39,487 nucleotides of DNA from Bradymonadia bacterium. Its GTDB lineage: Bacteria > Myxococcota_A > Bradymonadia > UBA7976 > UBA1532. The notes under the pieces were generated by a model. That model was not told the origin of the DNA, made no database searches, and saw only the letters and a list, made by a program, of their open reading frames with translations. Both the position numbers and the translations under genes were made by a program. This document shows, piece by piece, positions 15,892-34,148 of the stretch. The stretch is from contig JBNMOZ010000001.1 in assembly GCA_051276005.1 (NCBI GenBank), forward strand, positions 1-39,487. Reading direction: 5' to 3'. The first letter of the stretch is position 1, and every line of letters begins with the position of its first letter.

Positions 15892-15899
15892 CCGAACCG

Positions 15900-16787: not shown

Positions 16788-16806
16788 TTACCGATCGGAC
16801 TGCGCC

Positions 16807-19891: not shown

Positions 19892-20857
19892 TTATCGCGT
19901 CGTGATCTTGACGGTGAGCTTGCCGTTGCTGACTTCGGACGAAGCGACCGGCACATAGGCCTTGGCGGCCTTGCCCGACGCCTTGGTGATCTTCACGCGC
20001 GCGCCAGCCAGAGGGGCGCCGTTCTTGAACAGCTGTCCGCGATCGCCCTTCTTCACGCCGGGGGTGCTGAAGCTGATGACGATGGTCACCGACTCGCCAT
20101 TGGCGCCCGGCAAGACGCGGGTCACACGCCCGCTGTAGGTGCGTCCAGCGCTCTTGACGGTGATGGCCGGTGGGTCGTCAATCTGCGGAGAGACAGGCGG
20201 GTCGACCGGGGGAGCGACGGAAGGTGCGGTCTTCTTCTTCCTCTTGCAGCCCTTGCCCGACCGCACATACCCACGCTTGCAGACGCAGCGACCGCGGCGA
20301 GAGCGCATGCCGGACGGGCAGTTGAGCCGGGTCGGTCGCGCGACCGGCTGTGCGTCGGGCTCCGGCTCAGGATCGGGCTGGCGAATCGGCACCACGGTCT
20401 GCGGCTTGGCCGACGGCGCCAATGAGATGCGCGCGCCCAGGCTGTAGACCGACTTGCCGTCCTTGGTGAAGACCTTGATGTAGAACTTGTTGGGCACCTT
20501 CACGACGTCTTGGTCGAACACGTATGACGTCGTGTTGGGCACAACCAGGCGTCGGTCGAGGCGCTTGCCGAACTCATCGAAGATGGAGACGTAGGCGCCT
20601 TCGAGCTTTTCGGGGTTGTCGAAGCCGACTGACAGCCGCAGGCCGCCTGGATCGATGACGTCCAGATAGGTCCAGTCGGTGTTGTCGCCTTCGCCGCCGT
20701 CGATGGCGTCGGTGCGGGTCATGTCGAGAAACAGGCCGGTGGCCTGATCGCGCACTTCATCGCCGTCACTGTTGTCGTCGAGTTGGGTCGAGACGCCACC
20801 GCAACCGGCGAGCATCCAAAGCAGCATCCAAAGCGGCATGCGCAGGGCGCGGGTCAT
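19892..20857 (-). CDS. Lipoprotein, paralog A: PPC-like beta-domain, Cys/Lys-rich linker, C-terminal beta-domain
   Basis: Lipobox WMLAG/C. GEGDNTDWTYLDV..PGGLRLSVGF...L.GAYVSIFDEFG..L resembles a pre-peptidase C-terminal (PPC) domain. Linker CPSGMRSRRGRCVCKRGYVRSGKGCKRKKK. The internal ATG at 20857 is chosen over the track start at 21007. Confidence 0.65.
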   Translation of the reverse strand: MTRALRMPLWMLLWMLAGCGGVSTQLDDNSDGDEVRDQATGLFLDMTRTDAIDGGEGDNTDWTYLDVIDPGGLRLSVGFDNPEKLEGAYVSIFDEFGKRLDRRLVVPNTTSYVFDQDVVKVPNKFYIKVFTKDGKSVYSLGARISLAPSAKPQTVVPIRQPDPEPEPDAQPVARPTRLNCPSGMRSRRGRCVCKRGYVRSGKGCKRKKKTAPSVAPPVDPPVSPQIDDPPAITVKSAGRTYSGRVTRVLPGANGESVTIVISFSTPGVKKGDRGQLFKNGAPLAGARVKITKASGKAAKAYVPVASSEVSNGKLTVKITTR

Positions 20858-20868
20858 CAACGGCTCCC

Positions 20869-21807
20869 TCACTGAATCTGGATTTTGACCCGCCGGCGAT
20901 CGGCGATCTCGTTGGGCCGTGAGGTGGTGTACGCCTTGGTCGCGCTCGCCCCAACCTCTTTGATTATGATCGTCGCGAAGCAGGCGCCACTCGCCTTGAG
21001 AATGCAACCCTTGGCGCCGCGAATGACGCCATGCTTGCTGCCGCGATTCAAGGTCAAGAAGGCGCCCTTCTTGCGCGGCCCCGACAGCACGCGGACGATG
21101 CTCGCCCCGACCGTCTTGCCGCTGATTGCCGAGCCGCCACCGCCGCCGCCACCAGTGCCGCTTCCACGCTTGGGTCGACGCGCGCCGCCCCCACTGCCGC
21201 CTCGGCGAGACGTCCGGCCTCCGCCACGGCGTGCGCCGCCGCCGCTCACCGGGTCGGGGCGGATGTCGTCTGGGATGCCTTCATCGAGGATGTCACCCCC
21301 TGCGGCGGCAACCGGTCGGTCGTCGTCGGTGGGTTCGAAGTCGAAGGGCGTGAAGATGCCCTCGATGGTGTAGACGCTGTCGCCCTTTTTGGTGTTCAGC
21401 CGAATGAAGTGAGTGCCGGCCTCGACCCGCAGGTCGATCTGGTCCTTCTCGACCTCAGCCGAGTGTCGGCGCGAGTCGAGCAGCGCGCCGAAGCGGTCGC
21501 GGATGTCGATGATCGACTGCACATCCTTATGGTCGTCCCAGAAGATCGTGAGCTTCAAGAAGCCCTTCTCCTGAACTTTGAAGAACAACCAATCGGTGTT
21601 GTCGCCCTCGGAAGCCGACAGGAAGTCGTCTTTGAGCTTGTCAAAGAAGAGCTGCTGGGCGCCGGCGCGCTCGAAATCTTTGCCCGACGCGGAGTCCGGC
21701 TTGATCTGGGTCGAGCCGCAGCCGGTCAACGCGCTCAGCGCGAGCCCGAGGCAGGCGAGGAGGCCGATCGGCGAAGGTCGCCACAGGGCATTGACGCGCG
21801 TCCACAT
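20869..21807 (-). CDS. Lipoprotein, paralog B: PPC-like beta-domain, Gly/Arg-rich linker, C-terminal beta-domain
   Basis: Lipobox ALTG/C. SEGDNTDWLFFKV.EKGFLKLTIFW....V.SIIDIRDRFG.LL aligns with paralog A. Linker GGGARRGGGRTSRRGGSGGGARRPKRGSGTGGGGGGGS. GGAGG lies 10 nt upstream of the ATG at 21807. Confidence 0.65.
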   Translation of the reverse strand: MWTRVNALWRPSPIGLLACLGLALSALTGCGSTQIKPDSASGKDFERAGAQQLFFDKLKDDFLSASEGDNTDWLFFKVQEKGFLKLTIFWDDHKDVQSIIDIRDRFGALLDSRRHSAEVEKDQIDLRVEAGTHFIRLNTKKGDSVYTIEGIFTPFDFEPTDDDRPVAAAGGDILDEGIPDDIRPDPVSGGGARRGGGRTSRRGGSGGGARRPKRGSGTGGGGGGGSAISGKTVGASIVRVLSGPRKKGAFLTLNRGSKHGVIRGAKGCILKASGACFATIIIKEVGASATKAYTTSRPNEIADRRRVKIQIQ

Positions 21808-22013
21808 GATTCGATTGCCTCCTACACCGGGGCCAGCCACATGGCAGGCCGGGTCTTGACGGCCTAGCATCGCCGATTCGCGTACGTCAAGCCAAGGGGC
21901 TGAGAGGAGCGGGCGTAGGGTCGCGACAGATACTGCGCGATTTTGCATTGCCGAGCCATGGCTGTTGTTGGCATGCTACCGCGGCTCTTCGGGATCCGTC
22001 TAAACGAGGCAAC

Positions 22014-22637
22014 TTGGCCAAGCACCGCATCTTCCGGCATACCTCGGAGTCGCTCGCGACGCTCCTCGAGGACGGAGTCAAAGATGTCGTCGGGCGAAGC
22101 ATCTTGGTTGTCACCGGGCCGCCTCTGCGCGAAAAGTTCACGCGCATGCCGGCGCTCGGCGTCTATTTGTATCGGGTTGGCTTCCGCAAGAAGCTGCGTG
22201 AAGAGAGCGCGACCGAGTTTCACCGCATCGACGCGAAGGGCACGATCACCAAATGGCATCAGGATCCGTCGGTTCTGATGGACCTCGACTACTTGGTGAC
22301 TGCCTGGGCAGACGAGGATGCCGAGCAACAAGAACTGCTTGGTGCGGCGATGCGGGTTTTGCTGGCGAATCCGGTCATGGAAGGCGACAGTCTCGAAGGC
22401 GACGCCTTCGATCCTGACACTCGTATCCCGATTCGTCCGGTCGAAGAACTGTCTGTCGAGTTTCTCATGTCCCTCTGGCGCGGATTCGGGGAGCACCTCC
22501 GACCCGCCATGGGCTACACGTGCAGGGTTCGTTTGGAGTCGCCGCGCCGGACTGGCTTGGCGCGGCGGATCGATGACGCAAACGTTGGGGTCAAGTGGGC
22601 CCCAGACAAGCGACGCCCGGAAGAAGCGACGGGTTAA
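22014..22637 (+). CDS. DUF4255 (Pvc16/Afp16 N-terminal-like) protein, putative CIS tail terminator/cap
   Basis: LDLDYLVTAWADEDAEQQELLGAAMRVLLANPV, ...LSVEFLMSLWRGFGEHLRPAMGYTCRVRL matches the DUF4255 pattern (l.l.YLitaw.....e.e..lLg.vl..l...p.l .... lW.al.....psl.Y.v.v). TTG 22014 (GAGG 4 nt upstream) is preferred over the track ATG at 21948, because it leaves a 206-nt divergent intergenic region. The start is uncertain. Confidence 0.7.
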   Translation: MAKHRIFRHTSESLATLLEDGVKDVVGRSILVVTGPPLREKFTRMPALGVYLYRVGFRKKLREESATEFHRIDAKGTITKWHQDPSVLMDLDYLVTAWADEDAEQQELLGAAMRVLLANPVMEGDSLEGDAFDPDTRIPIRPVEELSVEFLMSLWRGFGEHLRPAMGYTCRVRLESPRRTGLARRIDDANVGVKWAPDKRRPEEATG

Positions 22638-22649
22638 AGAGGATGATGC

Positions 22650-23789
<1,140 letters not shown>

Positions 23790-23838
23790 TGTAGCGCCGT
23801 TTGAACTGGGATGGCCGCGGGGCCGCTGAGGAGAGAAT

Positions 23839-24318
23839 ATGTCTTTTACCGATATGCGGCGTGGTCATGACCACGTTGGTAACTACAACTTCAAAATCGA
23901 GGTCGATGGCATCTCATCGGGCTCGTTCAAATCCGTTGACGGCCTGAGCGCGAAGGTTGCGGTCATCGACTATCAGGACGGTCATGACTTGGTGGCGCGC
24001 AAGCGTCCGGGTCGTACGTCATATGGCGACATCACGCTCAAGCGTGGGTACGTCGAGGATCAGAGCCTCTACAAGTGGTTCATGGCCGTCGCCGAGGGCA
24101 AGGTTCAGCGCAAGAGCGTCTCGATCATCTTGCTCAACAACAACGGTGATGAGGTCGTGCGCTACAACCTCTTCGAGGCGTGGCCCAGTGAGTGGAAGGG
24201 CTTCTCCCTCGACGGCAAGGCCGACGACACCTCTGTCGAGGAGATCGTCTTCTGCGTTGAGAAGTGGGAGCGCGTCACCGGTGAGGCGTTCAGCACGCGG
24301 ACCGGCGTCGTTCGCTGA
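23839..24318 (+). CDS. Contractile tail tube protein (T4 gp19 / Afp1-like, 159 aa)
   Basis: NYNFKIEVDGISSGSFKSVDGLSAKV.VIDYQDG........PGRTSYGDITLKRG...D.SLYKW......G...RKSVSIILLN..GDEV.RYNLFEAWPS.W is the conserved tube family pattern. RBS GAGGAGAG. Confidence 0.88.
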   Translation: MSFTDMRRGHDHVGNYNFKIEVDGISSGSFKSVDGLSAKVAVIDYQDGHDLVARKRPGRTSYGDITLKRGYVEDQSLYKWFMAVAEGKVQRKSVSIILLNNNGDEVVRYNLFEAWPSEWKGFSLDGKADDTSVEEIVFCVEKWERVTGEAFSTRTGVVR

Positions 24319-24607
24319 TCAGCGCTTTGCGTTGATTTTGCCTGGACGTCGAAGCAGCCCTTCGCTGTCTTGACGTTCAATCAGTTGCTGACGGCAGACC
24401 GCCTCTGGTTCGCCGCAGCTTCGCGACGGCGTCTCGCCTTCAGGTGCGACGCCGTTTCGCGTTTCGCCAAGGCTTTGCGTCTCGGCCGACATAGCGGCTC
24501 AACTGGTCTGGGCATCGACTGCTTCTGGGTTCTGACCCGGATCTGCGTCGAGCCCCATGCTCGCGATTCGCTCTTGGCATCAACCCCCTACGCAGAATGC
24601 GGTTTAG

Positions 24608-24979
24608 ATGGCGTTCCAGACCGAGTTCAATTTCACCTTGCCCAAGGGCTTCGTCGATCAGCGCGGCAACGTGCATCGCGAAGGCATCATGCGGCTCGCC
24701 ACGGCGAAGGACGAAATCTCGCCGCTGCAGGATTACCGGGTGCAGCGCAACCGCGCCTACCTGGTGATCATTCTGTTGTCGCGCGTCGTCACCAAACTGG
24801 GCGGGGTCGAGAGCATCAACCCGTCGGTCATCGAGCAACTCTTCTCGTCTGACCTTGCGTATTTGCAGGAGTTCTACCGCCGGGTGAACGAAGAGGGTTC
24901 GGCAAGCATCAAGGCCACGTGCCCGGCTTGCCAGCACGAGTTCGAGATCGACATGGGGTCAGGCGTGGGGGAATCGTAA
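24608..24979 (+). CDS. Tail assembly chaperone-like protein (P2 gpE / Mu gp41-like pattern) with a C-terminal CxxC
   Basis: It sits after the tube gene. F.LPKGFVDQRGNVHREGIMRLATAKDEI.......V..N.AYLVIILLSRVVTKLGGVESINPSVIEQLFSSDLAYLQEFY resembles the phage TAC pattern (one ligand-like repeat, L...D...L...F). It ends ...CPACQHEFEIDMGSGVGES. There is no clear SD sequence. Confidence 0.5.
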   Translation: MAFQTEFNFTLPKGFVDQRGNVHREGIMRLATAKDEISPLQDYRVQRNRAYLVIILLSRVVTKLGGVESINPSVIEQLFSSDLAYLQEFYRRVNEEGSASIKATCPACQHEFEIDMGSGVGES

Positions 24980-25137
24980 GCTACCCTCTGGAGAGAATCT
25001 TCCAGGAGGTAGCGTACATTGCCTATCATTTCCATTGGTCGCTCGACTCGGTGCTCGACATGGAGCATCGCGAGCGCCAACTCTGGATTCGTGAGATCTC
25101 GAAGATAAACTCCGAGATCAACGACTCCCGACGGTAG
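24919..25137 (+). CDS. Small conserved CIS-locus protein (DUF6760-like as I recall it), or the -1 frameshift extension of the preceding chaperone
   Basis: The core YPLERIFQEVAYIAYHFHWSLDSVLDMEHRERQLWIREISKINSEIN looks like a real folded helical protein. The only canonical start is GTG 24919, 61 nt inside the upstream gene in its -1 frame. No start codon lies close to the conserved core. Confidence 0.45.
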   Translation: MPGLPARVRDRHGVRRGGIVSYPLERIFQEVAYIAYHFHWSLDSVLDMEHRERQLWIREISKINSEINDSRR

Positions 25138-25271
25138 TCGAGGCGGCGTTCATCTTCGCCTCTCGAGACTGAGCGGTCAGGCCGGCGGCCCGATCCCACA
25201 AGGACGCCCACGTCGGATGGGCAAGCCGGCTCGACGCGACTGGTCGTCGCGGGCGAGCGCGGAGAGCGTCC

Positions 25272-27026
25272 ATGGCGTTGACCCGTGCACCGGGTGTCTA
25301 CTACGAGGCCAACGAGCGACGCGTCAGCGCCCTCGCTTTGGGCCAGACGGGCGTACCGGTCTTTATCGGCGTGACCCGTCGTGGTCCGCTCAACGCCCCT
25401 GTTCAAATTTTCAGCCAGGCCCAGTTCGCTGAGTTCTTTGGCGATCCTCTGCCCGACGGCTATCTAGGCGCCGCCCTGCATGGGTTCTTCGAGAATGGCG
25501 GCGAGACGTGCTGCATTCTGCGCATCGCGCGGGTCAACGGGCGCCATGACGACGAAGACATCGCTCAGGCAGCCCGCCGCTTGCTGCCGGACGGCGTCGG
25601 TCGCCCGACGCTACGCGTCCAAGCGCGCAACCCGGGGAGTTGGGGCAACGGACTGCATCTCGACCTCGATCGAGTCGCGTTGCAACGCACGTTCCTGATC
25701 CGCGACGCCGACAAGGGCGACCAGCACCTCCAGTTGAAGACGGCGCACGGCATCACCGTCGGCACCCTCATTGAGATTCAGGCCGACGAGACGATTCAGT
25801 GGACTGTCGTCAATCGCATCGAGGGCAAGCGCATCTCGCTGGTTGACCCCTTGGCGCAGGCCTTCGCCTCGGCTGCGCCGACCTACGTGACAGCGCATGT
25901 CTTCTCGTTGAGCGTCCGCGACCTCGAACAGTCCGAGCGTTTCGAGAACTTGTCGATCTACGGCAACAGCCCACGCTTCGTAGAACGTGTGGTCAATGAC
26001 CGCAGCCGGCTGATTCACGTCACTGCTTTGCGGCCCGACACGTCTCTTGACGCTGCGATGCCCAAGCCTTTGGCCAACGGCCCGCTGATCGGGGGCGCTG
26101 ACGGCGTCGCGGATCTAGGGCCTGAAGACTTCATCGGCCACGATCGAGGCCCCGCGGATCGGCAGGGCTTGATGTGCCTCGTCGAGTACCCCCAGATCGA
26201 CCTTATCGTGCTCCCCGATTTGATGAGCGCCTGGCAGAACAGTAAGCGGTTCAAGACGCTGCGTGACGTTGAGGCGGTCCAGGAGGCGGCGGTGAGCCTA
26301 TGCGAGCGGTCGTCAAACCGCTTCGCGATCCTCGACATGCCGCCGGGCGGCGACTTGGCTGAGGCCCAGCGGTGGCGTCGGCAGTTCGACTCGGCCCACG
26401 CCGCGCTGTACTTCCCCTGGCTGATCACGCTTGAGGACGGTCGCCGACGCGCGGTCCCGCCCAGCGGTCACATCGCAGGCATCTTCTCACGCAGCGATGC
26501 TTCGCATGGCGTGCACAAGGCGCCCGCGAACGAGATCGTCGAAGGCATCGTCGACCTCGAAGTGCTCTTGCAGGACGCGCACCTCGCGCTGCTCTACGAC
26601 AAGGGGATCAATTGTATCCGGCCGTTCGCATCGCGCGGTCTGCGGGTATGGGGCGCGCGCACCCTGTCGAGCGATCCAGAGTGGCGCTACATCAACGTGC
26701 GGCGCACCGTCAGCGCCATCGCGCAGGCCATTGAGAACGGCACTCAATGGGCCGTGTTCGAGCCGAACAACCCCGCGCTGTGGAAGCGACTTGTTTCGGT
26801 CATCTCGAGCTTCCTCGCGGGCTTGCGCGTTTTGGGAGTACTCGACGGCGCGACGCCCGACGAAGCCTTCTTCGTGCAGTGCGATCCCGAGACGAACCCC
26901 CCTGAATCTGTCGATCGCGGTATGCTCGTGACGCGCATCGGTCTCGCCGTGTCACGGCCAGTGGAATTCATCGTCTTCCGTCTGGCACAACGGTTGGAAA
27001 GTGAAGCGCAGGCGTCGGAGGAATAG
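25272..27026 (+). CDS. Contractile tail sheath protein, large form (584 aa, with an extra central domain)
   Basis: N-terminal APGVYYE......ALALGQTGVPVFIGVT.RGP. C-terminal ALYFPWL........VPPSGHIAGIFSRSDASHGVHKAPANE, GINCIRPFASRGLRVWGARTLSSDPEWRYINVRR. The C-terminal roughly 180 aa look about 60% identical to sheath 1 by eye. Confidence 0.92.
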   Translation: MALTRAPGVYYEANERRVSALALGQTGVPVFIGVTRRGPLNAPVQIFSQAQFAEFFGDPLPDGYLGAALHGFFENGGETCCILRIARVNGRHDDEDIAQAARRLLPDGVGRPTLRVQARNPGSWGNGLHLDLDRVALQRTFLIRDADKGDQHLQLKTAHGITVGTLIEIQADETIQWTVVNRIEGKRISLVDPLAQAFASAAPTYVTAHVFSLSVRDLEQSERFENLSIYGNSPRFVERVVNDRSRLIHVTALRPDTSLDAAMPKPLANGPLIGGADGVADLGPEDFIGHDRGPADRQGLMCLVEYPQIDLIVLPDLMSAWQNSKRFKTLRDVEAVQEAAVSLCERSSNRFAILDMPPGGDLAEAQRWRRQFDSAHAALYFPWLITLEDGRRRAVPPSGHIAGIFSRSDASHGVHKAPANEIVEGIVDLEVLLQDAHLALLYDKGINCIRPFASRGLRVWGARTLSSDPEWRYINVRRTVSAIAQAIENGTQWAVFEPNNPALWKRLVSVISSFLAGLRVLGVLDGATPDEAFFVQCDPETNPPESVDRGMLVTRIGLAVSRPVEFIVFRLAQRLESEAQASEE

Positions 27027-27029
27027 GTC

Positions 27030-27725
27030 ATGGCCGGAGCATCGAAAATTCAGCACCCATACGGCGCCTTCCGTTTCAAACTTGAGGTCGATGGCGTCGC
27101 GCTGGGGCACTTCAAGAGTTGCAGCGGGCTCAAGCACGAGATCGAGGTGCTCGAGTTTCAAGAGGGCGGCGCCAACGCGTTCAAGCACAAGCTCGTTGCG
27201 CAGGGCAGCTACCCGAACATCGTCTTGAAGATGGGGTTTGTCTCGAACGGCATCGCAGAGGATTGGCACTACGAGTACGCCGCCGCCGACGCCCAGAAGG
27301 GCGAGCGCAAGGGCGTGCGCATTTATCTGCTGGCGGACGACGCGCAGACGGACGTGGGCTCGTGGACGCTCAAGGACGCTTGGCCCGCCAAATGGGAAGG
27401 GCCGGAGTTCGACGGCACCAGCGACAACCTTGCCGTCGAGACACTCGAGATCGCGCACCACGGCATCCTGCGAGACAAGCAGAAGTCGTCACCGACGCTG
27501 GAACCGACCCAGCCACTCAAGGGCCGGGCGAGGAGCGGCAGCGCTGAACGCGGTCCATCGGTGCCGGGCGGTCCATCGCTGGCGGGCATGCTGCCAACGC
27601 CTAATATTCCCGGCGCGGGCGCAGTGCCGACCGATCCGGCTGCGGCTGCGCAGGCCGCTTTGGCCCGGGCGCGTGAAGGCGCCAAGGCCGCCGCCCGCAA
27701 TGCCATGCCGCGTCTGCCCTTCTGA
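27030..27725 (+). CDS. Second tube-family protein (Afp5-like) with a roughly 80-aa Pro/Gly/Ala-rich C-terminal extension
   Basis: AFRFKLEVDGVALGHFKSCSGLKHEIEVLEFQEGG......KLV.QGSYPNIVLKMG.......DW........RKGVRIYLL.......GSWTLKDAWPAKWEGPEFDG is the tube fold. Residues from about 150 to 231 are low complexity. GGAGGA RBS. The stop overlaps the next start (TGATG). Confidence 0.82.
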   Translation: MAGASKIQHPYGAFRFKLEVDGVALGHFKSCSGLKHEIEVLEFQEGGANAFKHKLVAQGSYPNIVLKMGFVSNGIAEDWHYEYAAADAQKGERKGVRIYLLADDAQTDVGSWTLKDAWPAKWEGPEFDGTSDNLAVETLEIAHHGILRDKQKSSPTLEPTQPLKGRARSGSAERGPSVPGGPSLAGMLPTPNIPGAGAVPTDPAAAAQAALARAREGAKAAARNAMPRLPF

Positions 27726-30700
27726 TGGTGGAGTCCGCGGCGCTGGAGCCGCTCGCGCTCGACGTCGTGCGCGACCCGGTCTCGGCTCTCGGGGCTCGGC
27801 TGGATCGCTACGCCGGTCATCTCTCAGATCGCCTCAGTGGTTTTGGGAGCAGCGCTGCTGGTCCACGTGGCCGGTCGCTGCTGAGCAGCCTGTCGAATCG
27901 ATGGTCGATGCCAGGCGCAGGTGCCGGGCTCATCGAGGTCTTTGACGGGTCAGATTTCGGCGGGCTGGTTCGCCACTGGGGCACCCGTGAGGGCTACGGT
28001 GACACGGCGTACGGCACTCAGAGTCCGTTCGTCGTCCCGGTCGATCCCATCGAGCATGTCGAAGGCATCAGCGGCGCACATCTGCGGCGTCAGCCTGATC
28101 GGCGACGTGCACTGCGGCCGGTGGGTCTGCGATCGCAGCGCCCGTCGCAACGTCCACGGGCCATTGAACAGTGGCGTCCCTTGAGCGCCCGGCGCACACC
28201 CGTCAACACCCAAGCCCGCGCTGCGTCAACGCGCTTTACCGCGTATCCAGCTGCGATGGGCCAAGCCGGCGCCATCGACGCGACGCTGCTCCGGTTCCCA
28301 ACGGCGCAAGCCGAGATCGCCGATGGACCCGATCGCGCCGTCGTGACAGACCGCGGCTCGAACTCGATCGCGTGGGCACCGACCGCCAGCCGAACGCCCG
28401 CCATTCAGGCCGCCGAGCGACTCAGCGCCGATGTGGCTGCTCGACTCGCGCCGGCCCCCGCCGCTGAGCTGGGCGCGTGGCTCGTGCCGGCGTCGTCCCC
28501 CGAATCTGACGACGCCCTGGTGCAGCGCATGCCGCGCGCCCGATTGGCGAGGCTTCGACTCGATGCTCGAGTGCCGATCGCCGCGTTTGTGCCGCGCATC
28601 GGGCGCGCTGCGGTTGACGAGACGTCCAGCCCGGATGCGCCATGGCCTGCCGAAGGCATCCCCGGCGCGCTGATCGAGGCTCGCCGGCAAGAGCCGACCT
28701 CGGATGCGGCCGTCGCAGGTCGCGCGCCGACCCCGCTTGATGCTCGACGAGCGGTGGTCGATCGCGGGGAATCAACCAGTGCGCCCAAGCCAGCGGCAGA
28801 CGCGCTCAGCGCGCAAATCATCGCGCGCACGGCAACGCGCGCCGAGAATCGTCCGCTTGCGGCGTTGAGCCGGGGTCTGCAGCCACCCGCAGGCAATCCG
28901 ATGTCTGGCGCTGCCGAGCCGCACCCAGCGTTGCCCTGGCAGCCGCCGAGCACACCAGCACCGGGAGGCGCGCTATTCGTGCCGGCCGCTTTGGCGCGCT
29001 TGGCCGCGCAGGTCGCAGAGACGGTGCGCCCCAGCGAGGCTCCACGCGCAGACTGGCCGTGGGAGCGCGCGGATTCGATGCCCGCGACATCGTTCGTGAT
29101 GGCCGACCTGGCCGCCGATGGCGTGCTCGTGCAGCCTGCCCAGGCGCGGGCCACTGAATCTGAATTCGGAGACGTCGGTCGCACGCGATCCGCGACGGAT
29201 CGACCGACGTCCATTTCGTCTGCGGCGCTCGCGCGTCCCCCAGATGCGACACGGCGAGCCACGGTCCAGCCGCTCTCCTCGGCCAGCCAGCGCCGGGCGG
29301 CCCGTCAGCCTGTCGCCCGCACAGCACAGCAGGCCGCCACTCAGATCGCTGCCCGAGTTGAAGCGCGCTTGGCGCGTGTCCTCGCGGCGAGCGCGACCCG
29401 AACCAGCCCAGTCACGCTCTCGAACTTGCTGACTCACGCCCGAGACGGCGCATCGGACGCGGTTTGGCAGGCCAAAATTGCGGCTGATCCTGCGCTGGCG
29501 CAAGTGCTTGGGCAGGTCGATCGACTGACACCACGCACCTCGATGACCGCGCCAATGCCGGCGTCGGGCTTGACTGGCCGATCGGCCTCGGCCATGTCCG
29601 GTCAGCGCTCAACGGGGGCCCATCGGGCCCGCCTCGAAGACGGGCTGTCGGTCCTCAGTGGCGCGCCGGTCAGCGCGACACTCCTCTCGCCGTCCTGGTC
29701 GCAGATGTCACCCATCGCCCGTGCCGTGCTTGGCGCGGCCGGCTTCGGCCCAGAGGCCGACCGGCAGCCTGGGCCGGCGTTTTCATTCGGAGAGCGGCTG
29801 GCGGCGGTCGCTGCAGACCTGTCTTCGCGACATGGGCTCTCGACCGAGTCGAGCGTTGCGGGCGGGTTGGATGCAGCCTGGTTCAGCGAGCCGACGGGCA
29901 CGCTCGTGCTTCCGATGACGGCTGATCCGTCGCGTGATCAAGAGGCTGCGTCCGTGACCATGCGCGCGGACTCGCCCGGCCGAACGGCGCGTGCGCGCGC
30001 AGCAGAGCGCGCAGTGCCCCCGGTCGCGACCGACGAAAGTGGCGCCGCTGCGTCCTTCCCACCGAGCGCCCTCTCGGGGTCGCGCACGCTTGTGGGTCTG
30101 CCTGCTGCGCTGCAGGCCGCATTGCGTGGCGCACAGCGGCGCGGCCCAGCGGCGCGCTTGCGTCCGGTCCCCCGTTTAACGCGCGTCAACGCGCCCATCG
30201 CGCCCGAAGCGATGGCGATGCTGACGCAGGTGCAGACCACACCACCGGCGGTCGTCGCGATCCTGGCGCGCGCGGAGCGATTGCTCGCGGGCGGACAAGC
30301 GGCTGCGATCTCGGCGTTGGCGCAGTCGGCCGATATGCCATCCCTCATCACGCTCGCGCGGCTGGCCGAGGCGCCTGATGCCTTGGCCGCGCTGTCGGAT
30401 GTGAAGCGCGCGCCGGGTATTCTTCGCGCGCTCGCTCGCCTGACGGCGACGCCGGATTCGCGCGCGACTGCAGACGACGTCCCTCTGCGCGCGTTCAGGC
30501 GGCTTGAGCAGCCGGGTGGTCCGCGGCTCGACACACTTGAATCGCTGGATGCGGCGCTGGTTGAGATCGTCGGTGACGCCCCGGCGTTCTCTGACAATAC
30601 GCCGGGCGCACCGCACCGTCGTGAAGCAGATCAGCGCCGTCCATCTGAGCCAGCGCCTGCGCGGCTCGCTGAGTCGCTCAGGACGCTGACCAGCGCCCTG

Positions 30701-32416
30701 CCGGCAGCGCTGCGTGCTGCGTTGGCCGCGGCCACGGCCCCTGCACGTTCAGGTGGCCGACCATTGCGCCCGACGGCGGGTGCGGCGCAGGCGCGAAGCC
30801 AAGCGCGTAGCGACACCCTTGCCTCGGTGAGCGCGCGACGGGACGGATTTTCGGTTGGCGCCATCGGCCTGGTCGCGCGCCGCGCGGCTGATTGGGCACA
30901 ACTGGCAGAGGCGGCAGCGCCGCGTGGGTTCGAAGCGTTGGCAACTCAGACGGGCGACAGCGCGCAATCGCCGATCGCGAGTCGAGTGCTGGCGCCGCGG
31001 ACGATGGTCGCCGACGAGATGATTCGGACTTGGGTCACGCAGTCAGGCGAGCCCGGTGTCGCGGGCGAGTCGGCAACTCGGCCTGCTGCAGTCGAGCGCA
31101 CGCGTGCCGCGCCCATCGGGCTCAGTGGTCGTCGCTCGGCGGCGTTCGCGCATACGCTAGACGGCCTGGGTGAGGCGCCGGCATCGCAGGTGCGCCGCTC
31201 GATCTGGCAGGCGCCAGATGCCTGGACATTCATTGCGTCGGCGGCCGGCGCCGACGGGGCAACGCAGTCGGCCACCCGCACTCCGTTTGCGCCTCAATCA
31301 ACATCGGCCGCGCGACATCGCGAGGCGATGAGCCTGACCAGTCATGGCGTTGCGGCGCCCAGCGGCGCAGATCCCGACGCAGGTGCGACGCGCAGGGCGG
31401 CTATCCAACAGACGGCGATGGGCGTGCCTGGCGGCAAGCTGCGTTGGCCGCAAGCGACCTTCAGTTGGGTCCAGGCTGCTGCTGCAGAGGCGGGGTCGAC
31501 GATCGGGGATGCGTCTTTGCCAGCACGCGAGCAAATGACAGGCTCAGCGGCCCGGCGACGCGCGTTTGTGCCGAAGGCGTTCGCGGGCATTGCGAGTCTG
31601 CGCAGCCTGGGCGTCAGCGATCGAATCCTGATGCAGAGCCTGAATGGTCTCGGTGTCTTCGGTGCACCGGCGAGCCCCCGCACCAGCGCGGATCCACTCG
31701 GCCCCATGGGCGCGACCCCCCGCATGGATTTGGAGTTGGCGCTGCCCGGGTCGACTGAGTCGTCCGCGTCGAACGCCGAACGCTTTGCCGACGAGACGTT
31801 TGCGCGCCAAGCACGCATCTCGGCCGCCAACGCACCCAGCCCGCGCTCGGCCGATACGCCTGAGTTCGACGTCGACTGGGTGCAACCGGTCAAGGCCGTG
31901 TCCGATGAGAGCGCGCAGCTCGCTCCGCGCCTGCGATCGCCGAGCAACATCAGCCGGGCGCTCGACGTCTGGGTCGATGCCGTGAAGGCTGAAGCCGTGC
32001 GCTCGCCGTCGGCTGCGCGCAATGCCCTGGGCAGCGTGGGCCAGCTCATCGCGCAGTTCAGCACGCCCGCCGTCTCGAACACCCGCGTTCGACCGTCGAA
32101 CGTCTTGCGCGGATCGCTCTTTGGCGGGCGCAGCGCGTCGCCGGTGACCCTCGAGGCGCCCCAAGAGGGCGACGCGCGCCCGGCCTTGATCCGTCCAGGC
32201 GAGCACGCAGCCCGGCAGGCGTTGCGCAAGGGCAACGACGTGGTGCAGGCCAGCCAGGCCACGACCACCGAAGAGGCCCGGCACAAAAATTCGGAGCAGA
32301 CCGACGAGTTGATTCCGCCTGAAGAGGTGGAGCGTCTCGCCGCCGAAGTCATCGATAGAATCAAGCGCGAGCTGGAGTTCGACGCCGCTCGGATGGGAGA
32401 AGACGGATGGGATTAG
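27725..32416 (+). CDS. Giant (1563 aa) Ala/Arg/Pro/Ser-rich low-complexity protein in the tape-measure position
   Basis: A single 4.7-kb open frame is translationally coupled at both ends (TGATG at 27723-27727; 10-nt overlap with the LysM gene). Antisense ORFs are fragmented. Only the first roughly 120 aa and last roughly 60 aa (ELIPPEEVERLAAEVIDRIKRELEFDAARMGEDGWD) look like ordinary folded or helical sequence. The tape-measure call rests on synteny only. Confidence 0.5.
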   Translation: MVESAALEPLALDVVRDPVSALGARLDRYAGHLSDRLSGFGSSAAGPRGRSLLSSLSNRWSMPGAGAGLIEVFDGSDFGGLVRHWGTREGYGDTAYGTQSPFVVPVDPIEHVEGISGAHLRRQPDRRRALRPVGLRSQRPSQRPRAIEQWRPLSARRTPVNTQARAASTRFTAYPAAMGQAGAIDATLLRFPTAQAEIADGPDRAVVTDRGSNSIAWAPTASRTPAIQAAERLSADVAARLAPAPAAELGAWLVPASSPESDDALVQRMPRARLARLRLDARVPIAAFVPRIGRAAVDETSSPDAPWPAEGIPGALIEARRQEPTSDAAVAGRAPTPLDARRAVVDRGESTSAPKPAADALSAQIIARTATRAENRPLAALSRGLQPPAGNPMSGAAEPHPALPWQPPSTPAPGGALFVPAALARLAAQVAETVRPSEAPRADWPWERADSMPATSFVMADLAADGVLVQPAQARATESEFGDVGRTRSATDRPTSISSAALARPPDATRRATVQPLSSASQRRAARQPVARTAQQAATQIAARVEARLARVLAASATRTSPVTLSNLLTHARDGASDAVWQAKIAADPALAQVLGQVDRLTPRTSMTAPMPASGLTGRSASAMSGQRSTGAHRARLEDGLSVLSGAPVSATLLSPSWSQMSPIARAVLGAAGFGPEADRQPGPAFSFGERLAAVAADLSSRHGLSTESSVAGGLDAAWFSEPTGTLVLPMTADPSRDQEAASVTMRADSPGRTARARAAERAVPPVATDESGAAASFPPSALSGSRTLVGLPAALQAALRGAQRRGPAARLRPVPRLTRVNAPIAPEAMAMLTQVQTTPPAVVAILARAERLLAGGQAAAISALAQSADMPSLITLARLAEAPDALAALSDVKRAPGILRALARLTATPDSRATADDVPLRAFRRLEQPGGPRLDTLESLDAALVEIVGDAPAFSDNTPGAPHRREADQRRPSEPAPARLAESLRTLTSALPAALRAALAAATAPARSGGRPLRPTAGAAQARSQARSDTLASVSARRDGFSVGAIGLVARRAADWAQLAEAAAPRGFEALATQTGDSAQSPIASRVLAPRTMVADEMIRTWVTQSGEPGVAGESATRPAAVERTRAAPIGLSGRRSAAFAHTLDGLGEAPASQVRRSIWQAPDAWTFIASAAGADGATQSATRTPFAPQSTSAARHREAMSLTSHGVAAPSGADPDAGATRRAAIQQTAMGVPGGKLRWPQATFSWVQAAAAEAGSTIGDASLPAREQMTGSAARRRAFVPKAFAGIASLRSLGVSDRILMQSLNGLGVFGAPASPRTSADPLGPMGATPRMDLELALPGSTESSASNAERFADETFARQARISAANAPSPRSADTPEFDVDWVQPVKAVSDESAQLAPRLRSPSNISRALDVWVDAVKAEAVRSPSAARNALGSVGQLIAQFSTPAVSNTRVRPSNVLRGSLFGGRSASPVTLEAPQEGDARPALIRPGEHAARQALRKGNDVVQASQATTTEEARHKNSEQTDELIPPEEVERLAAEVIDRIKRELEFDAARMGEDGWD

Positions 32417-33048
32417 CCAAGCTGACCATCACGCCGCTCGACAAGAATAAGGCCGAGCTGACGACGGGCGCGCTTAAGGCGCTCTTTAATCCCAAGGAGT
32501 ATACGATCTCCAAGAGCGTACCGTGGAACCCGCAGGCGACCGCGGGCCTCGACGCGCCAGAGATGCAGTTCACCATGGGGCAGGGTGAGACGCTCAAGCT
32601 CGAGCTGTTCTTCGACACCTATGAAACCCGCAGCCCGGTGACAGCGCACACCGACAAGCTGCATAAAATGGCTCTGATTGATGCGGATTTGCATCGGCCT
32701 CCCATGGTCTTGCTCAGCTGGGGCAAGCTCAAGTTTCGCGGAGTGATCGAGTCGCTGACGCATCGCTTCACGATGTTTCTCGAGGATGGCACGCCCGTGC
32801 GGGCGACCTGCTCGGTCAACCTGCGTGAGGCCCGCGACGCGAGTGAGCAGGCCAAAGACACCAAGAAGGCCAGCCCCGACCACGCCAAGCTGCGTGCCGT
32901 TCGCCGGGGCGAGACGCTGCAGAGCATCGCGGCCGAAGAGTATGACGATCCCGGCGAATGGCGACGCATCGCCAACGCCAACAGCATCGATGATCCGTTC
33001 CGGCTCGAGCCCGGGATTCGGCTGATCGTGCCCCCGATTCTGAGCTAG
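32407..33048 (+). CDS. CIS tube-initiator-like protein with a C-terminal LysM domain (Afp7-like)
   Basis: The N-terminal LKALFNPKEYTISKSVPW............F.MGQGETLKLELFFDTY is the CIS tube-protein N-terminal pattern. C-terminal LysM: VRRGETLQSIAAEEYDDPGEWRRIANANSIDDPFRLEPGIRLIVP. Confidence 0.82.
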   Translation: MGLAKLTITPLDKNKAELTTGALKALFNPKEYTISKSVPWNPQATAGLDAPEMQFTMGQGETLKLELFFDTYETRSPVTAHTDKLHKMALIDADLHRPPMVLLSWGKLKFRGVIESLTHRFTMFLEDGTPVRATCSVNLREARDASEQAKDTKKASPDHAKLRAVRRGETLQSIAAEEYDDPGEWRRIANANSIDDPFRLEPGIRLIVPPILS

Positions 33049-33059
33049 CTGGGTGTTGC

Positions 33060-34148
33060 ATGGCTGACGATAAATGGGTCCCTGAATACAAAATCAAGGT
33101 CGACGGCAAGGAGATGCCGGCCGACGATCGAGCACATCTGCAGCAGATCCTGGTGGATCTGCGGCGGCAGTCGCCGGCCAGCGTGGAGTTGCAGTTCAAC
33201 AACCACGGGGGCGACTTCGATGAACGCGCAGAGTACGCGCCGGGCGCGGCGGTCGAGGTGGCCATGGGCTACACGATCAGCGGCACCGAGGTCGTCTTCA
33301 CCGGCGAGATCATCGGCAACCAGGTCAAGCTGGCCGAGAACGCGCCGCGGCTGTTCATCGTGCGTGCCTTCGATCACCTGCATCGCATGACGCGGGGGCG
33401 CAAGACGCGCACGTTTCTGGATACGAAGTTCAGCGACATCGTCACGACCGTGGCCGCGGACTCGAGCCTGAGCCCCGAGGTCGACGACACCGCCTTCGTG
33501 CGTGAGTACGTGATCCAGCACAACCAGACCGACTTTGACTTCGTGCGCGGCATCGCGGGCTGGCTCGACTTTGACCTGCATGTGCGTCATCGCGAGGGCG
33601 CGAACACGCTGCGTTTCAAGAAGCCTGACGTGACCGGCGAGGCCATCGTGACGGCCATTTATGAGAAGCCCAACGTCGAAGGCGATGAGGTGCATCTGCG
33701 CCGCTTCGATGGGCGGCTGTCTTTGGCGCGCGTGGTCAGCGAGGTGACGGTTCGTGGGTGGAACCCGGCCGAAAAGAAGGAGATCGTCGGCAAGAAGGCC
33801 GAACTCTACGGCGCGATGGGCGGAGAGTCACCCGCCACCGATGAGATCAGAGAGAAGTGGGGCGAGACCGACCGACAGATCGTCGACTACAAGGTCTTCA
33901 GCCAAGAAGAGGCCGACAAGATCGCCGAGACCAAGGTCAACGAGTACGCGCGCACCTTCATCAAGGCCGACATCGAGCTTCGCGGCCACGTCGAGCTGCA
34001 GCCGGGCACGATCCTCAAGGTCGAGCGGGTGGGCCCGCGGTTCGACGGCAAGTACTTCATCGAGCAGGTGACCCATCGCTTCATCTCGAAGGTCTTGCCG
34101 CGCAGTGGCTACACGTCGACCGTGCGCGCCGCGCGCTGCGACTGGTAG
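33060..34148 (+). CDS. Phage late control gene D (gpD) / VgrG N-terminal-like baseplate hub protein
   Basis: ...V.V.MGY......VFTGEI.......E......IVRAFD.LHRMTRGRKTRTF.D.K.SDIV..VA..S.L..EVD.T....EYV.Q.NQTDFDF....A....FDL.V and the C-terminal G.ILKVE.VG.RFDGKY.IEQVTH.F...GYTSTV are the Phage_GPD pattern. There is no gp5 OB-fold or beta-helix extension. Confidence 0.85.
   Translation: MADDKWVPEYKIKVDGKEMPADDRAHLQQILVDLRRQSPASVELQFNNHGGDFDERAEYAPGAAVEVAMGYTISGTEVVFTGEIIGNQVKLAENAPRLFIVRAFDHLHRMTRGRKTRTFLDTKFSDIVTTVAADSSLSPEVDDTAFVREYVIQHNQTDFDFVRGIAGWLDFDLHVRHREGANTLRFKKPDVTGEAIVTAIYEKPNVEGDEVHLRRFDGRLSLARVVSEVTVRGWNPAEKKEIVGKKAELYGAMGGESPATDEIREKWGETDRQIVDYKVFSQEEADKIAETKVNEYARTFIKADIELRGHVELQPGTILKVERVGPRFDGKYFIEQVTHRFISKVLPRSGYTSTVRAARCDW

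What the first reader, a model, noticed from the sequence alone, without database searches (positions are those of the whole stretch)
27725..32416. 1563-aa Ala/Arg/Pro/Ser-rich, almost Lys-free giant occupying the tape-measure slot
Seen in the sequence: a single 4.7-kb ORF lies between tube 2 and the LysM initiator and is coupled at both ends.

By eye roughly one residue in five is Ala, with abundant Arg, Pro, Ser and Thr. I count only about ten Lys, and see no Cys and very few aromatic residues. There are no exact internal repeats, only recurring motifs such as LPAALRAAL / LPAALQAAL.

Only the N-terminal roughly 120 aa and the C-terminal roughly 60 aa (acidic, helical, ending EVERLAAEVIDRIKRELEFDAARMGEDGWD) look like conventional domains.

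Established knowledge: in phages and in Afp the tape-measure protein sits in this position, and its length sets tail length at about 0.15 nm per helical residue.

Inference: if this protein is a fully helical ruler, it predicts a tail of the order of 230 nm. That is much longer than the roughly 100-nm particles I recall for Afp/PVC. However, the composition looks intrinsically disordered rather than coiled-coil. It may instead be a lumen-filling scaffold, a cargo or a cargo tether. Either way it is atypical.
Basis: partly seen in the sequence, partly recalled or inferred. Interest (0 to 1): 0.75.

Follow-up and report, generated by a model that had tools for sequence, protein, structure and literature searches.

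The report
Disordered giant in a tail's tape-measure slot
A real, conserved 1563-residue protein, predicted to be mostly unfolded, sits where phage tails encode their length ruler in a myxobacterial phage-tail-like injection machine; it belongs to no described family and may be a non-helical ruler.

Summary
ORF 27725-32416(+) encodes 1563 aa: Ala 20.3%, Arg 10.6%, Ser 9.1%, Pro 8.8%, 10 Lys, 0 Cys, 4 Tyr. It has no internal repeats and overlaps both neighbouring genes.

It is not an artefact. Twenty-four non-redundant complete relatives (1167-1920 aa) exist, all named ones in Myxococcota MAGs. The gene order around them is always cap, sheath, tube, x160, sheath, tube adaptor, giant, LysM tube initiator, VgrG.

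Only about 255 N-terminal and 165 C-terminal residues are conserved. The roughly 1100-residue middle is indel-rich and predicted mostly disordered: AlphaFold2 pLDDT is below 50 for about 75% of residues, with 30-38% in short helices.

It matches no Pfam, NCBIfam, PHROGs or PDB entry, including CIS_TMP (PF19268), which the control Afp14 hits at 1.9e-49. It has no transmembrane segment, DUF4157 or enzyme domain.

Best reading (about 0.5): a lumen-resident tape-measure equivalent. Its amphipathic C-terminal helix would dock in the spike cavity, as the Cis6 plug or a phage tape-measure C-terminus does, and its extended middle would set tube length.

Main rival: a Tme-like ejected cargo.

The parts
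27725..32416 (+). Giant ORF, 1563 aa. Candidate tape-measure-like lumen protein of a myxobacterial contractile injection system.
   Evidence: ORF and composition. (24 complete non-redundant relatives of 1167-1920 aa in fixed synteny). (Ka/Ks 0.21).
27725..28489 (+). Conserved N-terminal module (aa 1-255). It consists of short motif islands (VFDGxDF, PFVVPVDPxEH, YPAAMGxAGAIDxxLLRFPxA, PAxxAAE, WLVP) separated by Arg-rich linkers.
   Evidence: conservation islands at aa 72-81, 96-115, 172-199 and 223-237. (only short helices, pLDDT 50-75). (Ka/Ks 0.09).
28490..31924 (+). Hypervariable, indel-rich Ala/Arg/Pro/Ser middle (aa 256-1400). It is predicted mostly disordered with scattered short helices. 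Its length is clade-specific.
   Evidence: no family-wide conserved island; 2956 alignment columns for about 1500-aa proteins. (pLDDT mostly below 50). (length clades). (Ka 0.29-0.31, Ka/Ks 0.24-0.25). (no TM-like segment).
31925..32413 (+). Conserved C-terminal module (aa 1401-1563): NxxRAL, LFGDRGP, RSTPGERP, ETxEEARH and the final acidic helix.
   Evidence: (the profile finds only 33 proteins among 1.84 billion, always at the extreme C-terminus). (Ka/Ks 0.11).
32318..32395 (+). Terminal amphipathic helix (aa 1532-1557, PEEVERLAAEVIDRIKRELEFDAARM). Proposed trimerising plug or anchor in the spike cavity.
   Evidence: pLDDT about 90, helix. (hydrophobic moment 1.29 against 0.62 for shuffles, P=0.03). 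(weak, non-significant resemblance to the Afp6 helix). (role of Cis6).
27030..27725 (+). Tube adaptor (Cis5-like, 231 aa), with stop and start sharing one base with the giant. It has an 80-aa P/G/A-rich C-terminal tail specific to this clade.
32407..33048 (+). Tube initiator with LysM domain (Cis7/Afp7-like). Its start overlaps the giant's end by 10 nt.
33060..34148 (+). Spike/hub protein (gpD/VgrG-related, Cis8-like). It is the last CIS gene in this window.
21948..22637 (+). Cap/tail terminator (Pvc16_N domain). It is the first gene of the cluster and the expected partner of the distal end of a ruler.
22650..27026 (+). Sheath 1 (22650-23789), tube 1 (23839-24318), small Arg-rich protein x160 (24370-24852) and sheath 2 (25272-27026).

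Best explanation
The giant is the tape-measure equivalent (lumen protein) of a Myxococcota-specific contractile injection system (CIS). It is built differently from known tape measures.

Proposed mechanism (inferred):
- The conserved C-terminal module ends in an amphipathic helix. This helix would trimerise and sit in the tube-facing cavity of the spike and tube-initiator complex. That is the place occupied by the Cis6 plug in Afp/PVC/AlgoCIS and by the tape-measure C-terminus in phage tails. From there it would nucleate assembly.
- The roughly 1100-residue Ala/Arg/Pro/Ser middle would run up the tube lumen as a largely extended, weakly structured and net-positive chain.
- The conserved N-terminal motif module would mark the distal end, where the Pvc16-like cap stops polymerisation.
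- Chain length, not sequence, would then be the selected property. At 0.15-0.23 nm per residue this predicts particles of roughly 230-360 nm.

Shown here: the gene's position, translational coupling and strict synteny; conserved ends with a hypervariable middle; clade-specific lengths; predicted disorder; and the absence of any other tape-measure or plug gene in the parts of the clusters held here.

Inferred, not shown: lumen location, hub docking, the ruler function and the particle length.
For: Position and coupling:
- The gene sits between the Cis5-like tube adaptor and the Cis7-like LysM initiator, and overlaps both.
- The same eight-gene order recurs across the Myxococcota loci, as far as each contig reaches.
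- Where the cluster is contiguous it also holds cap, gp25, baseplate J, Cis12-like and Cis13-like genes. It has no PF19268 tape measure and no DUF5908 plug gene, so the giant is the only candidate for either role.

Pattern of conservation:
- The ends are conserved and under purifying selection (Ka/Ks 0.09-0.11). The middle evolves 4-40 times faster in Ka than the neighbouring genes, yet stays open.
- Lengths cluster by clade (1563-1591, 1475-1494, 1320-1423 aa) despite more than 200 residues of indels between clade members.
- All 24 complete members are 1167-1920 aa.
- The C-domain is always at the extreme C-terminus.

Structure and composition:
- The terminal helix is confident (pLDDT about 90) and amphipathic.
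- The rest is mostly below pLDDT 50, with 30-38% short helices.
- Order-promoting residues are 22.8%, against 36.8% in Afp14.
- The family has 2 Cys in about 35,000 residues.

Literature:
- Cis6 is a trimeric helical plug in the spike cavity and is essential for assembly.
- The eCIS tape measure acts as a ruler at about 0.22 nm per residue.
- The tube lumen is negatively charged, and the giant is net +23.
Against: - No detectable homology to any tape measure. There is no hit to PF19268, PHROGs, NCBIfam or PDB sequences. hhalign against Afp14 gives probability 0.4%. There are no relatives in 2.9 million viral contigs.
- Known eCIS tape measures are predicted almost entirely helical in the middle. 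This protein is not.
- Resemblance of the C-terminus to Cis6 is not significant (probability 8% or less). PF19265 is not hit.
- Within-clade length conservation is only a trend. The random-sign test gives P of 0.05-0.7 per pair.
- Low pLDDT may partly reflect shallow alignments of 10-11 sequences.
- In two long-read MAGs (L006, L013) the ORF is broken by 1-nt indels.
- A chain this large could also be packed into a short tube, so particle length cannot be read from gene length.
Confidence: 0.5

Rival explanations
1. A Tme-like cargo or effector, or a cargo tether. The protein is loaded in the lumen, held at the hub by its C-terminus and ejected on contraction. Its job lies in the target or producer cell, and length control is done by something else.
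For: - Streptomyces davawensis Tme is also the largest ORF of its cluster. It lies immediately upstream of the tube initiator and spike genes, is about 70% disordered, binds the spike and initiator, and is an ejected effector.
- Sle1 is a second tape-measure-like effector class.
- The conserved N-terminal motif module could be a functional or loading element.
- CIS-Sc has a uniform 268-nm length without a recognised tape-measure gene, so length control without a classical tape measure exists.
Against: - The giant has no DUF4157 and no enzymatic or toxin domain.
- It has no TM-like segment: the maximum KD19 hydropathy is 1.35.
- Effectors usually vary by swapping C-terminal domains. Here the C-terminus is the most conserved part, and the only variable part is featureless low-complexity sequence.
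- No alternative ruler gene is seen in the contiguous clusters.
Confidence: 0.25
2. A classical, essentially all-helical tape measure (0.15 nm per residue) giving a tail of about 230 nm.
For: - High Ala, Leu and Arg content favours helices.
- AlphaFold2 places 32 helices in residues 1-1150 and 13 in residues 1101-1563.
- Afp14 itself has 7.5% Pro, so Pro content alone does not exclude a tape measure.
Against: - Helices cover only 30-38% of residues. The longest is 26 residues (H1532-1557), and 24 in residues 1-1150. Most have low confidence.
- A Pro occurs every 10 residues on average. Only four Pro/Gly-free stretches reach 25 residues.
- Order-promoting residues are 22.8% against 36.8% in Afp14.
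- The middle accumulates indels freely.
- There is no PF19268 match.
Confidence: 0.08
3. Not a functional gene: an assembly or frame artefact, a chance high-GC ORF, or a decaying pseudogene.
For: - Weak GC3 signal in this window (0.74).
- Many long spurious ORFs occur on both strands in this high-GC DNA.
- The ORF is frame-broken in L006 and L013.
Against: - Open and full-length in this window and in 23 other non-redundant family members.
- Conserved ends with Ka/Ks of 0.09-0.11 and a middle at 0.24.
- Strict synteny and overlapping start and stop codons.
- In other loci the gene's GC3 is 0.85-0.93.
- The breaks in L013 are 1-nt indels, several at G/C runs, in a long contig of 652 kb. They leave 79-87% identity in each piece, which is compatible with sequencing error.
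Confidence: 0.02

Closest known systems
Afp14 / Pvc14 / Alg14 (Cis14, Pfam PF19268 CIS_TMP), the tape measure of extracellular contractile injection systems
   Same: Encoded in a CIS cluster. It has conserved N- and C-terminal regions flanking a variable middle. It is expected to lie in the tube lumen, and its length is expected to scale with particle length (Alg14: 526 aa for 120.6 nm, engineered variants follow).
   Different: No sequence relationship: Afp14 hits PF19268 at 1.9e-49 and the giant hits nothing. The giant is three times longer. Its middle is predicted mostly disordered rather than helical. It is encoded between Cis5 and Cis7 instead of after Cis13.
Tme (BN159_7576) of Streptomyces davawensis, a tape-measure-related CIS effector (Nagakubo 2024, PMC11126660)
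   Same: The largest ORF of the cluster. It lies immediately upstream of the tube-initiator and spike genes and is mostly disordered (about 70%). It is proposed to contact the spike and initiator.
   Different: Tme has DUF4157, transmembrane helices, coiled coils and a C-terminal EndA-like nuclease. The giant has none of these.
Cis6 / Afp6 / Pvc6 / Alg6 (DUF5908, PF19265), the spike plug
   Same: It occupies the same gene slot between Cis5 and Cis7. It ends in an amphipathic helix that trimerises in the spike cavity facing the tube lumen and is essential for assembly. The giant ends in a confident amphipathic helix with a similar VERxxxEVxxxL pattern. No separate Cis6 gene exists in the slot between the tube adaptor and the tube initiator.
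   Different: Cis6 is about 55 aa. No significant profile similarity was found (probability 8% or less; no PF19265 hit). The giant carries about 1500 additional residues.
Phage tail tape-measure proteins (P2 gpT, lambda gpH, T4 gp29)
   Same: Gene order tube, tape measure, hub. It is the largest gene of the tail module. The C-terminus is expected at the hub and the N-terminus at the terminator (established knowledge; discussion).
   Different: No PHROGs hit and no relatives in IMG/VR. It has no transmembrane or coiled-coil core. No frameshifted chaperone gene was recognised upstream.
Type III secretion rulers YscP and FliK (own knowledge: Journet et al. 2003, about 0.19 nm per residue)
   Same: Works-like analogy only. 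These are largely unfolded, Pro-rich rulers with functional end domains whose residue number sets the length of a tubular structure.
   Different: An unrelated machine. The giant has no T3S4 domain (no Pfam hit). The T3SS rulers are secreted through the growing structure rather than anchored at its base.

Membership tests
CIS_TMP (PF19268; Afp14/Pvc14/Alg14) | Significant match to the PF19268 profile | tested here: not met
   There is no Pfam hit for the whole protein or for four fragments, even at E<=10. The control Afp14 scores 1.9e-49. hhalign of the C-terminal profile against Afp14 gives probability 0.4%.
CIS_TMP (PF19268; Afp14/Pvc14/Alg14) | Middle region predicted almost exclusively alpha-helical | tested here: not met
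   AlphaFold2 gives 30% helix in residues 1-1150 and 38% in residues 1101-1563, with about 75% of residues below pLDDT 50. Caveat: the alignments were shallow.
CIS_TMP (PF19268; Afp14/Pvc14/Alg14) | Protein length sets particle length | not testable with these tools
   This needs EM of length variants. Only clade-specific length clustering is seen.
Phage tail tape-measure proteins | Gene lies between the tube gene and the hub or initiator genes and is the largest in the module | tested here: met
Phage tail tape-measure proteins | Homology to phage tape-measure families, or presence in phage genomes | tested here: not met
   No PHROGs hit. No relatives in IMG/VR with either end-domain profile.
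Phage tail tape-measure proteins | Hydrophobic or transmembrane segments and a long coiled coil | tested here: not met
   The maximum 19-residue Kyte-Doolittle mean is 1.35, and no window exceeds 1.6. The longest predicted helix is 26 residues. No dedicated coiled-coil predictor was run.
Tme-like CIS effectors (Nagakubo 2024) | Large, mostly disordered protein encoded just upstream of the tube initiator and spike | tested here: met
Tme-like CIS effectors (Nagakubo 2024) | DUF4157 core domain | tested here: not met
   No Pfam hit at E<=10.
Tme-like CIS effectors (Nagakubo 2024) | C-terminal enzymatic (nuclease) domain and transmembrane helices | tested here: not met
   The C-terminal 165 aa are short helices with no family match. 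There is no TM-like segment.
Tme-like CIS effectors (Nagakubo 2024) | Sequence homology to BN159_7576 | not tested
Cis6 spike plug (DUF5908, PF19265) | Gene slot between Cis5 and Cis7 | tested here: met
   (Afp6 position) compared.
Cis6 spike plug (DUF5908, PF19265) | Profile match to PF19265 | tested here: not met
   PF19265 is absent from scans of 21 C-terminal sequences at E<=10. hhalign gives probabilities of 2%, 8% and 1.6%. The DUF5908 alignment available was of low diversity.
Cis6 spike plug (DUF5908, PF19265) | C-terminal amphipathic helix able to form a trimeric core | tested here: inconclusive
   A confident terminal helix is predicted (pLDDT about 90). Its hydrophobic moment exceeds shuffles with P=0.03. 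Trimerisation and docking were not modelled.

The most novel reading that the evidence does not exclude
A contractile tail whose length is set by an intrinsically disordered, extended-chain ruler rather than a helical tape measure. The ruler would combine in one polypeptide the spike-plug role of Cis6 (assembly nucleus) and the ruler role of Cis14. This would be a FliK/YscP-style ruling principle inside a phage-tail-like machine, giving Myxococcota injection particles of roughly 250-350 nm. It could also point to how other CIS without a recognisable tape-measure gene (lineage II, Streptomyces CIS-Sc) fix their length.
Probability: 0.3. Interest if true: 0.75.

Novelty: new variant of a known kind. 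Interest (0 to 1): 0.55.

Why it matters
Open question. How contractile injection systems that lack a recognisable Cis14 tape measure fix their length is unresolved. afp14 homologues are reported absent from all lineage II loci. The Streptomyces CIS is uniformly 268 nm long with no tape-measure gene in its cluster.

What this family offers. It is a concrete, testable candidate for a ruler of a different physical kind: an unfolded chain with conserved end modules. It would also test whether the nm-per-residue rule depends on helicity.

Practical angle. Tube length scales with cargo capacity in engineered eCIS. A tolerant, low-complexity spacer would be an easy handle for tuning particle length.

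If it is a cargo instead. It would then extend the recently recognised class of tape-measure-like CIS effectors to Myxococcota, in a form without any known effector domain.

Tried and rejected
Searches that found nothing:
- Pfam, NCBIfam and PHROGs on the whole protein and on fragments, at relaxed E-values.
- PDB sequence search with the family profile.
- Foldseek of the C-terminal model against PDB; the best hit had E=2.9.
- An exhaustive HMM search with the C-terminal profile. It found only family members (33 hits, all E up to 1e-10, none weaker), so there is no bridge to other families.
- A word-indexed search with the N-terminal profile. It found one fragment only.
- IMG/VR scans with both end profiles.

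Tests that were not significant:
- Homology of the C-terminus to Afp14.
- Homology of the C-terminus to Afp6/DUF5908. I keep this only as an analogy of position and shape.
- A random-sign test for compensating indels, as a test of length selection. It showed a trend only.

Methods that did not discriminate:
- Simple composition scales (Uversky plot, TOP-IDP, Pro content). They do not separate the giant from Afp14, so I rely on AlphaFold2 confidence, order-promoting residue content and indel behaviour.

Ideas rejected:
- Lys depletion as an adaptation against ubiquitination in a eukaryotic target. There is no evidence for it, and GC-driven drift in weakly constrained sequence is simpler. The trait is nevertheless family-wide.
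- The 526-aa gene downstream in related loci as an alternative tape measure. It is Cis13-like (fibre).

Not done:
- I did not fold-search the N-terminal model, because its confidence (mean pLDDT 43) would make matches meaningless.


Full report
1. The observation

The ORF at 27725-32416(+) is real as described: an ATG start and 1563 codons. Its composition is:
- Ala 20.3%, Arg 10.6%, Ser 9.1%, Pro 8.8%, Leu 8.1%, Gly 7.1%.
- Only 10 Lys, no Cys and 4 Tyr.
- Trp (21) and Phe (32) are not unusually rare.

The tube2 stop and the giant's ATG share a base (TGATG). The giant's end overlaps the start of the next gene by 10 nt. There are no tandem repeats.

The bias exceeds the local background:
- Other proteins of the window, pooled, have 4.3% Lys and R/(R+K) of 0.66, against 0.6% and 0.94 here.
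- Order-promoting residues make up 28-39% of 18 other window proteins, against 22.8% here.

Third-position GC is only 0.74, against 0.79-0.87 in neighbours. That could have suggested a false ORF, but the comparative data below exclude it.

2. The surroundings

Pfam and NCBIfam identify a contractile injection system (CIS) with these genes:
- Pvc16-like cap (21948-22637)
- Sheath 1 (22650-23789)
- Tube 1 (23839-24318)
- A small Arg-rich protein, x160 (24370-24852)
- Sheath 2 (25272-27026)
- Cis5-like tube adaptor (27030-27725)
- The giant
- Cis7-like tube initiator with a LysM domain (32407-33048)
- gpD/VgrG-related spike (33060-34148)

The cluster stops there. KsgA, TsaD and a FadL-like gene follow on the other strand.

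In six related genomes the cluster continues with a zinc-ribbon protein, gp25, a 1012-aa baseplate J protein (TIGR02243), a Cis12-like protein, a Cis13-like fibre and an FHA protein. The window, together with L002 and L004, therefore carries one half of a split locus. Split loci are a known arrangement.

None of these clusters, as far as they are held here, contains a PF19268 tape measure. None has a separate DUF5908 plug gene between the tube adaptor and the tube initiator.

3. The gene is conserved but belongs to no known family

- A search of 5.8 billion proteins found ten relatives of 1113-1585 aa.
- A scan of one genome per species found eleven loci. Those whose records name a taxon are Myxococcota MAGs (Myxococcales, Nannocystaceae, Bradymonadia). 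The gene order is the same as far as each contig reaches.
- An exhaustive HMM search of 1.84 billion representatives with the C-terminal profile found only 33 proteins, all at E up to 1e-10 and none weaker. The domain is always at the very C-terminus.
- After removing fragments, 24 non-redundant complete members span 1167-1920 aa, with a median of 1478.
- All members are Ala-rich and Lys-poor (0.1-1.3%). Together they hold 2 Cys in about 35,000 residues.
- Pfam, NCBIfam, PHROGs and PDB sequences give no match, even at permissive thresholds.
- The control Afp14 from pADAP hits PF19268 at 1.9e-49. It shows no profile similarity to the giant.
- Nothing related is found in 2.9 million viral contigs.

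4. Anatomy

Conserved and variable parts:
- Family-wide conservation is confined to residues 1-255 and to residues 1401-1563.
- The N-terminal part consists of motif islands at residues 72-81, 96-115, 172-199 and 223-237. These include PFVVPVDP and YPAAMGxAGAIDxxLLRFP.
- The C-terminal part carries NxxRAL, LFGDRGP, RSTPGERP, ETxEEARH and the terminal helix.
- The 1140 residues in between have no family-wide island. Aligning 24 proteins of about 1500 aa needs 2956 columns.

Rates against the closest relative, L002. L002's LysM and VgrG proteins are 98% and 96% identical to the window's.

| Region | Amino-acid identity | Ka | Ka/Ks |
|---|---|---|---|
| Giant, middle | 58-66% | 0.29-0.31 | about 0.24 |
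| Giant, ends | 81-90% | 0.06-0.11 | about 0.1 |
| Neighbouring genes | 86-98% | 0.008-0.08 | 0.02-0.15 |

The middle is therefore weakly constrained, but it is neither neutral nor under evident positive selection.

AlphaFold2 with the family alignments:

| Residues modelled | Mean pLDDT | Residues below pLDDT 50 | Helix content |
|---|---|---|---|
| 1-1150 | 43 | 834 of 1150 | 30%, in 32 short pieces |
| 1101-1563 | 45 | 336 of 463 | 38% |

The only confident elements are two helices at about residues 1406-1445 (pLDDT about 70) and the final helix at 1532-1557 (pLDDT about 90). That final helix is amphipathic.

No 19-residue window is hydrophobic enough for a membrane span. Foldseek finds nothing. 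The alignments were shallow, so low confidence is not proof of disorder. Composition and indel behaviour point the same way.

5. Length

Lengths fall into clades:
- 1563-1591 aa (the window's clade)
- 1475-1494 aa
- 1320-1423 aa

Within clades, members at 48-68% identity differ by more than 200 residues of inferred indels, yet by only 3-33 residues net. This suggests selection on length. However, a random-sign test is not significant for single pairs (P of 0.05-0.7). I treat it as a trend.

6. What it most likely is

Three systems bear on this gene slot:
- In phage tails the gene between the tube and the hub is the tape measure.
- In S. davawensis the gene there is Tme, a mostly disordered tape-measure-related effector that binds the spike and initiator.
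- In Afp/PVC/AlgoCIS the slot holds Cis6. This is a 55-aa protein whose C-terminal helix forms a trimeric plug in the spike cavity facing the lumen. It is essential for assembly.

The giant is the only protein in these clusters that could supply either a plug or a ruler. Its best-conserved and best-predicted element is a terminal amphipathic helix. Its sequence loosely resembles the Afp6 helix (VERLAAEVIDRI against VERIKQEVLEQL), but not significantly.

I therefore propose the following model:
- The protein is anchored in the hub by its C-terminus.
- It fills the lumen with an extended, net-positive chain. The CIS tube lumen is reported to be negative.
- It presents its N-terminal motifs at the distal end, where the Pvc16-like cap terminates growth.

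With 0.15 nm per residue the tube would be about 230 nm. With the experimentally derived eCIS coefficient of 0.216-0.229 nm per residue it would be about 340-360 nm. Such lengths are not unprecedented: Streptomyces CIS measure 230-300 nm.

The position, coupling, conservation pattern and predicted disorder are shown here. The lumen location, docking and ruler function are inferences.

7. Rivals

- Tme-like cargo. This remains serious (0.25). It is weakened by the absence of DUF4157, transmembrane helices and any enzymatic domain, and by the fact that the C-terminus is the invariant part.
- Classical all-helical ruler. This is unlikely (0.08).
- Artefact or pseudogene. This is essentially excluded (0.02). 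Two long-read MAGs show the gene broken by 1-nt indels, several at G/C runs, and I could not resolve these.

8. Verdict

It is right about atypicality and disorder. It is wrong about Afp's gene order, and the helical 230-nm figure is not favoured.
- The protein is not a member of CIS_TMP, of phage tape-measure families, of Tme-like effectors or of DUF5908 by any feature that could be tested. It most plausibly works like a tape measure fused to a plug.
- I rate it a new variant of a known kind, of moderate to good interest (0.55). It offers a testable candidate for non-helical length control in contractile injection systems.

Noticed in passing
window 21948-34148; L007, L008, L010-L013 downstream of VgrG: The window's CIS cluster ends after VgrG and lacks gp25, baseplate J, Cis12/13-like, PAAR and ATPase genes. 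In six related Myxococcota genomes the baseplate genes follow directly. The window, L002 and L004 therefore carry one half of a split locus.
   Followed up: partly
window 21948-22637 (+): A TTG-start ORF of 229 aa just upstream of sheath 1 is a Pvc16_N cap/terminator protein. It is conserved in all loci, so the operon starts with the cap gene.
   Followed up: yes
window 27480-27725 (tube2 residues about 150-231): The Cis5-like tube adaptor has an 80-residue Pro/Gly/Ala-rich C-terminal tail. In the other clades, matches to this protein stop at about residue 148-171; only the closest relative, L002, matches the tail.
   Followed up: no
window 24370-24852 (+): This is a small protein between tube 1 and sheath 2 (Arg 15.6%, Lys 0.6%) with no family match. 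Only its C-terminal 80-90 residues are conserved across loci, so the true start may be internal. Its role is unknown (chaperone?).
   Followed up: partly
window 19892-21007 (-) and 20869-21948 (-): Two divergently oriented genes of unknown family are conserved next to the cluster in all nine other loci that reach that far. They are possibly CIS-associated.
   Followed up: no
L006 9983-13889; L013 9430-13593: In two long-read MAGs from one study the giant is split over several frames by 1-nt indels, several at G/C runs, while neighbouring genes are intact. Whether this is sequencing error in extreme-GC DNA or real decay is unresolved.
   Followed up: partly
window 27725-32416 compared with L002: Synonymous divergence of the giant's N-terminal and middle parts (Ks 1.1-1.3) is about twice that of the neighbouring genes (0.4-0.65). 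The cause could be weaker codon bias, misalignment around indels, or a locally different history.
   Followed up: no
window 10251-18936 (+): Upstream lies a BatA / MoxR (AAA_3) / DUF58 / VWA / TPR-peptidase / DUF4175 operon of the aerotolerance-like type. It is unrelated to the finding.
   Followed up: no
L012 22668-23513; L012 16015-16698: The contiguous relatives end with an FHA plus zinc-ribbon protein. They also carry a 227-aa zinc-ribbon protein where a PAAR protein might be expected.
   Followed up: no
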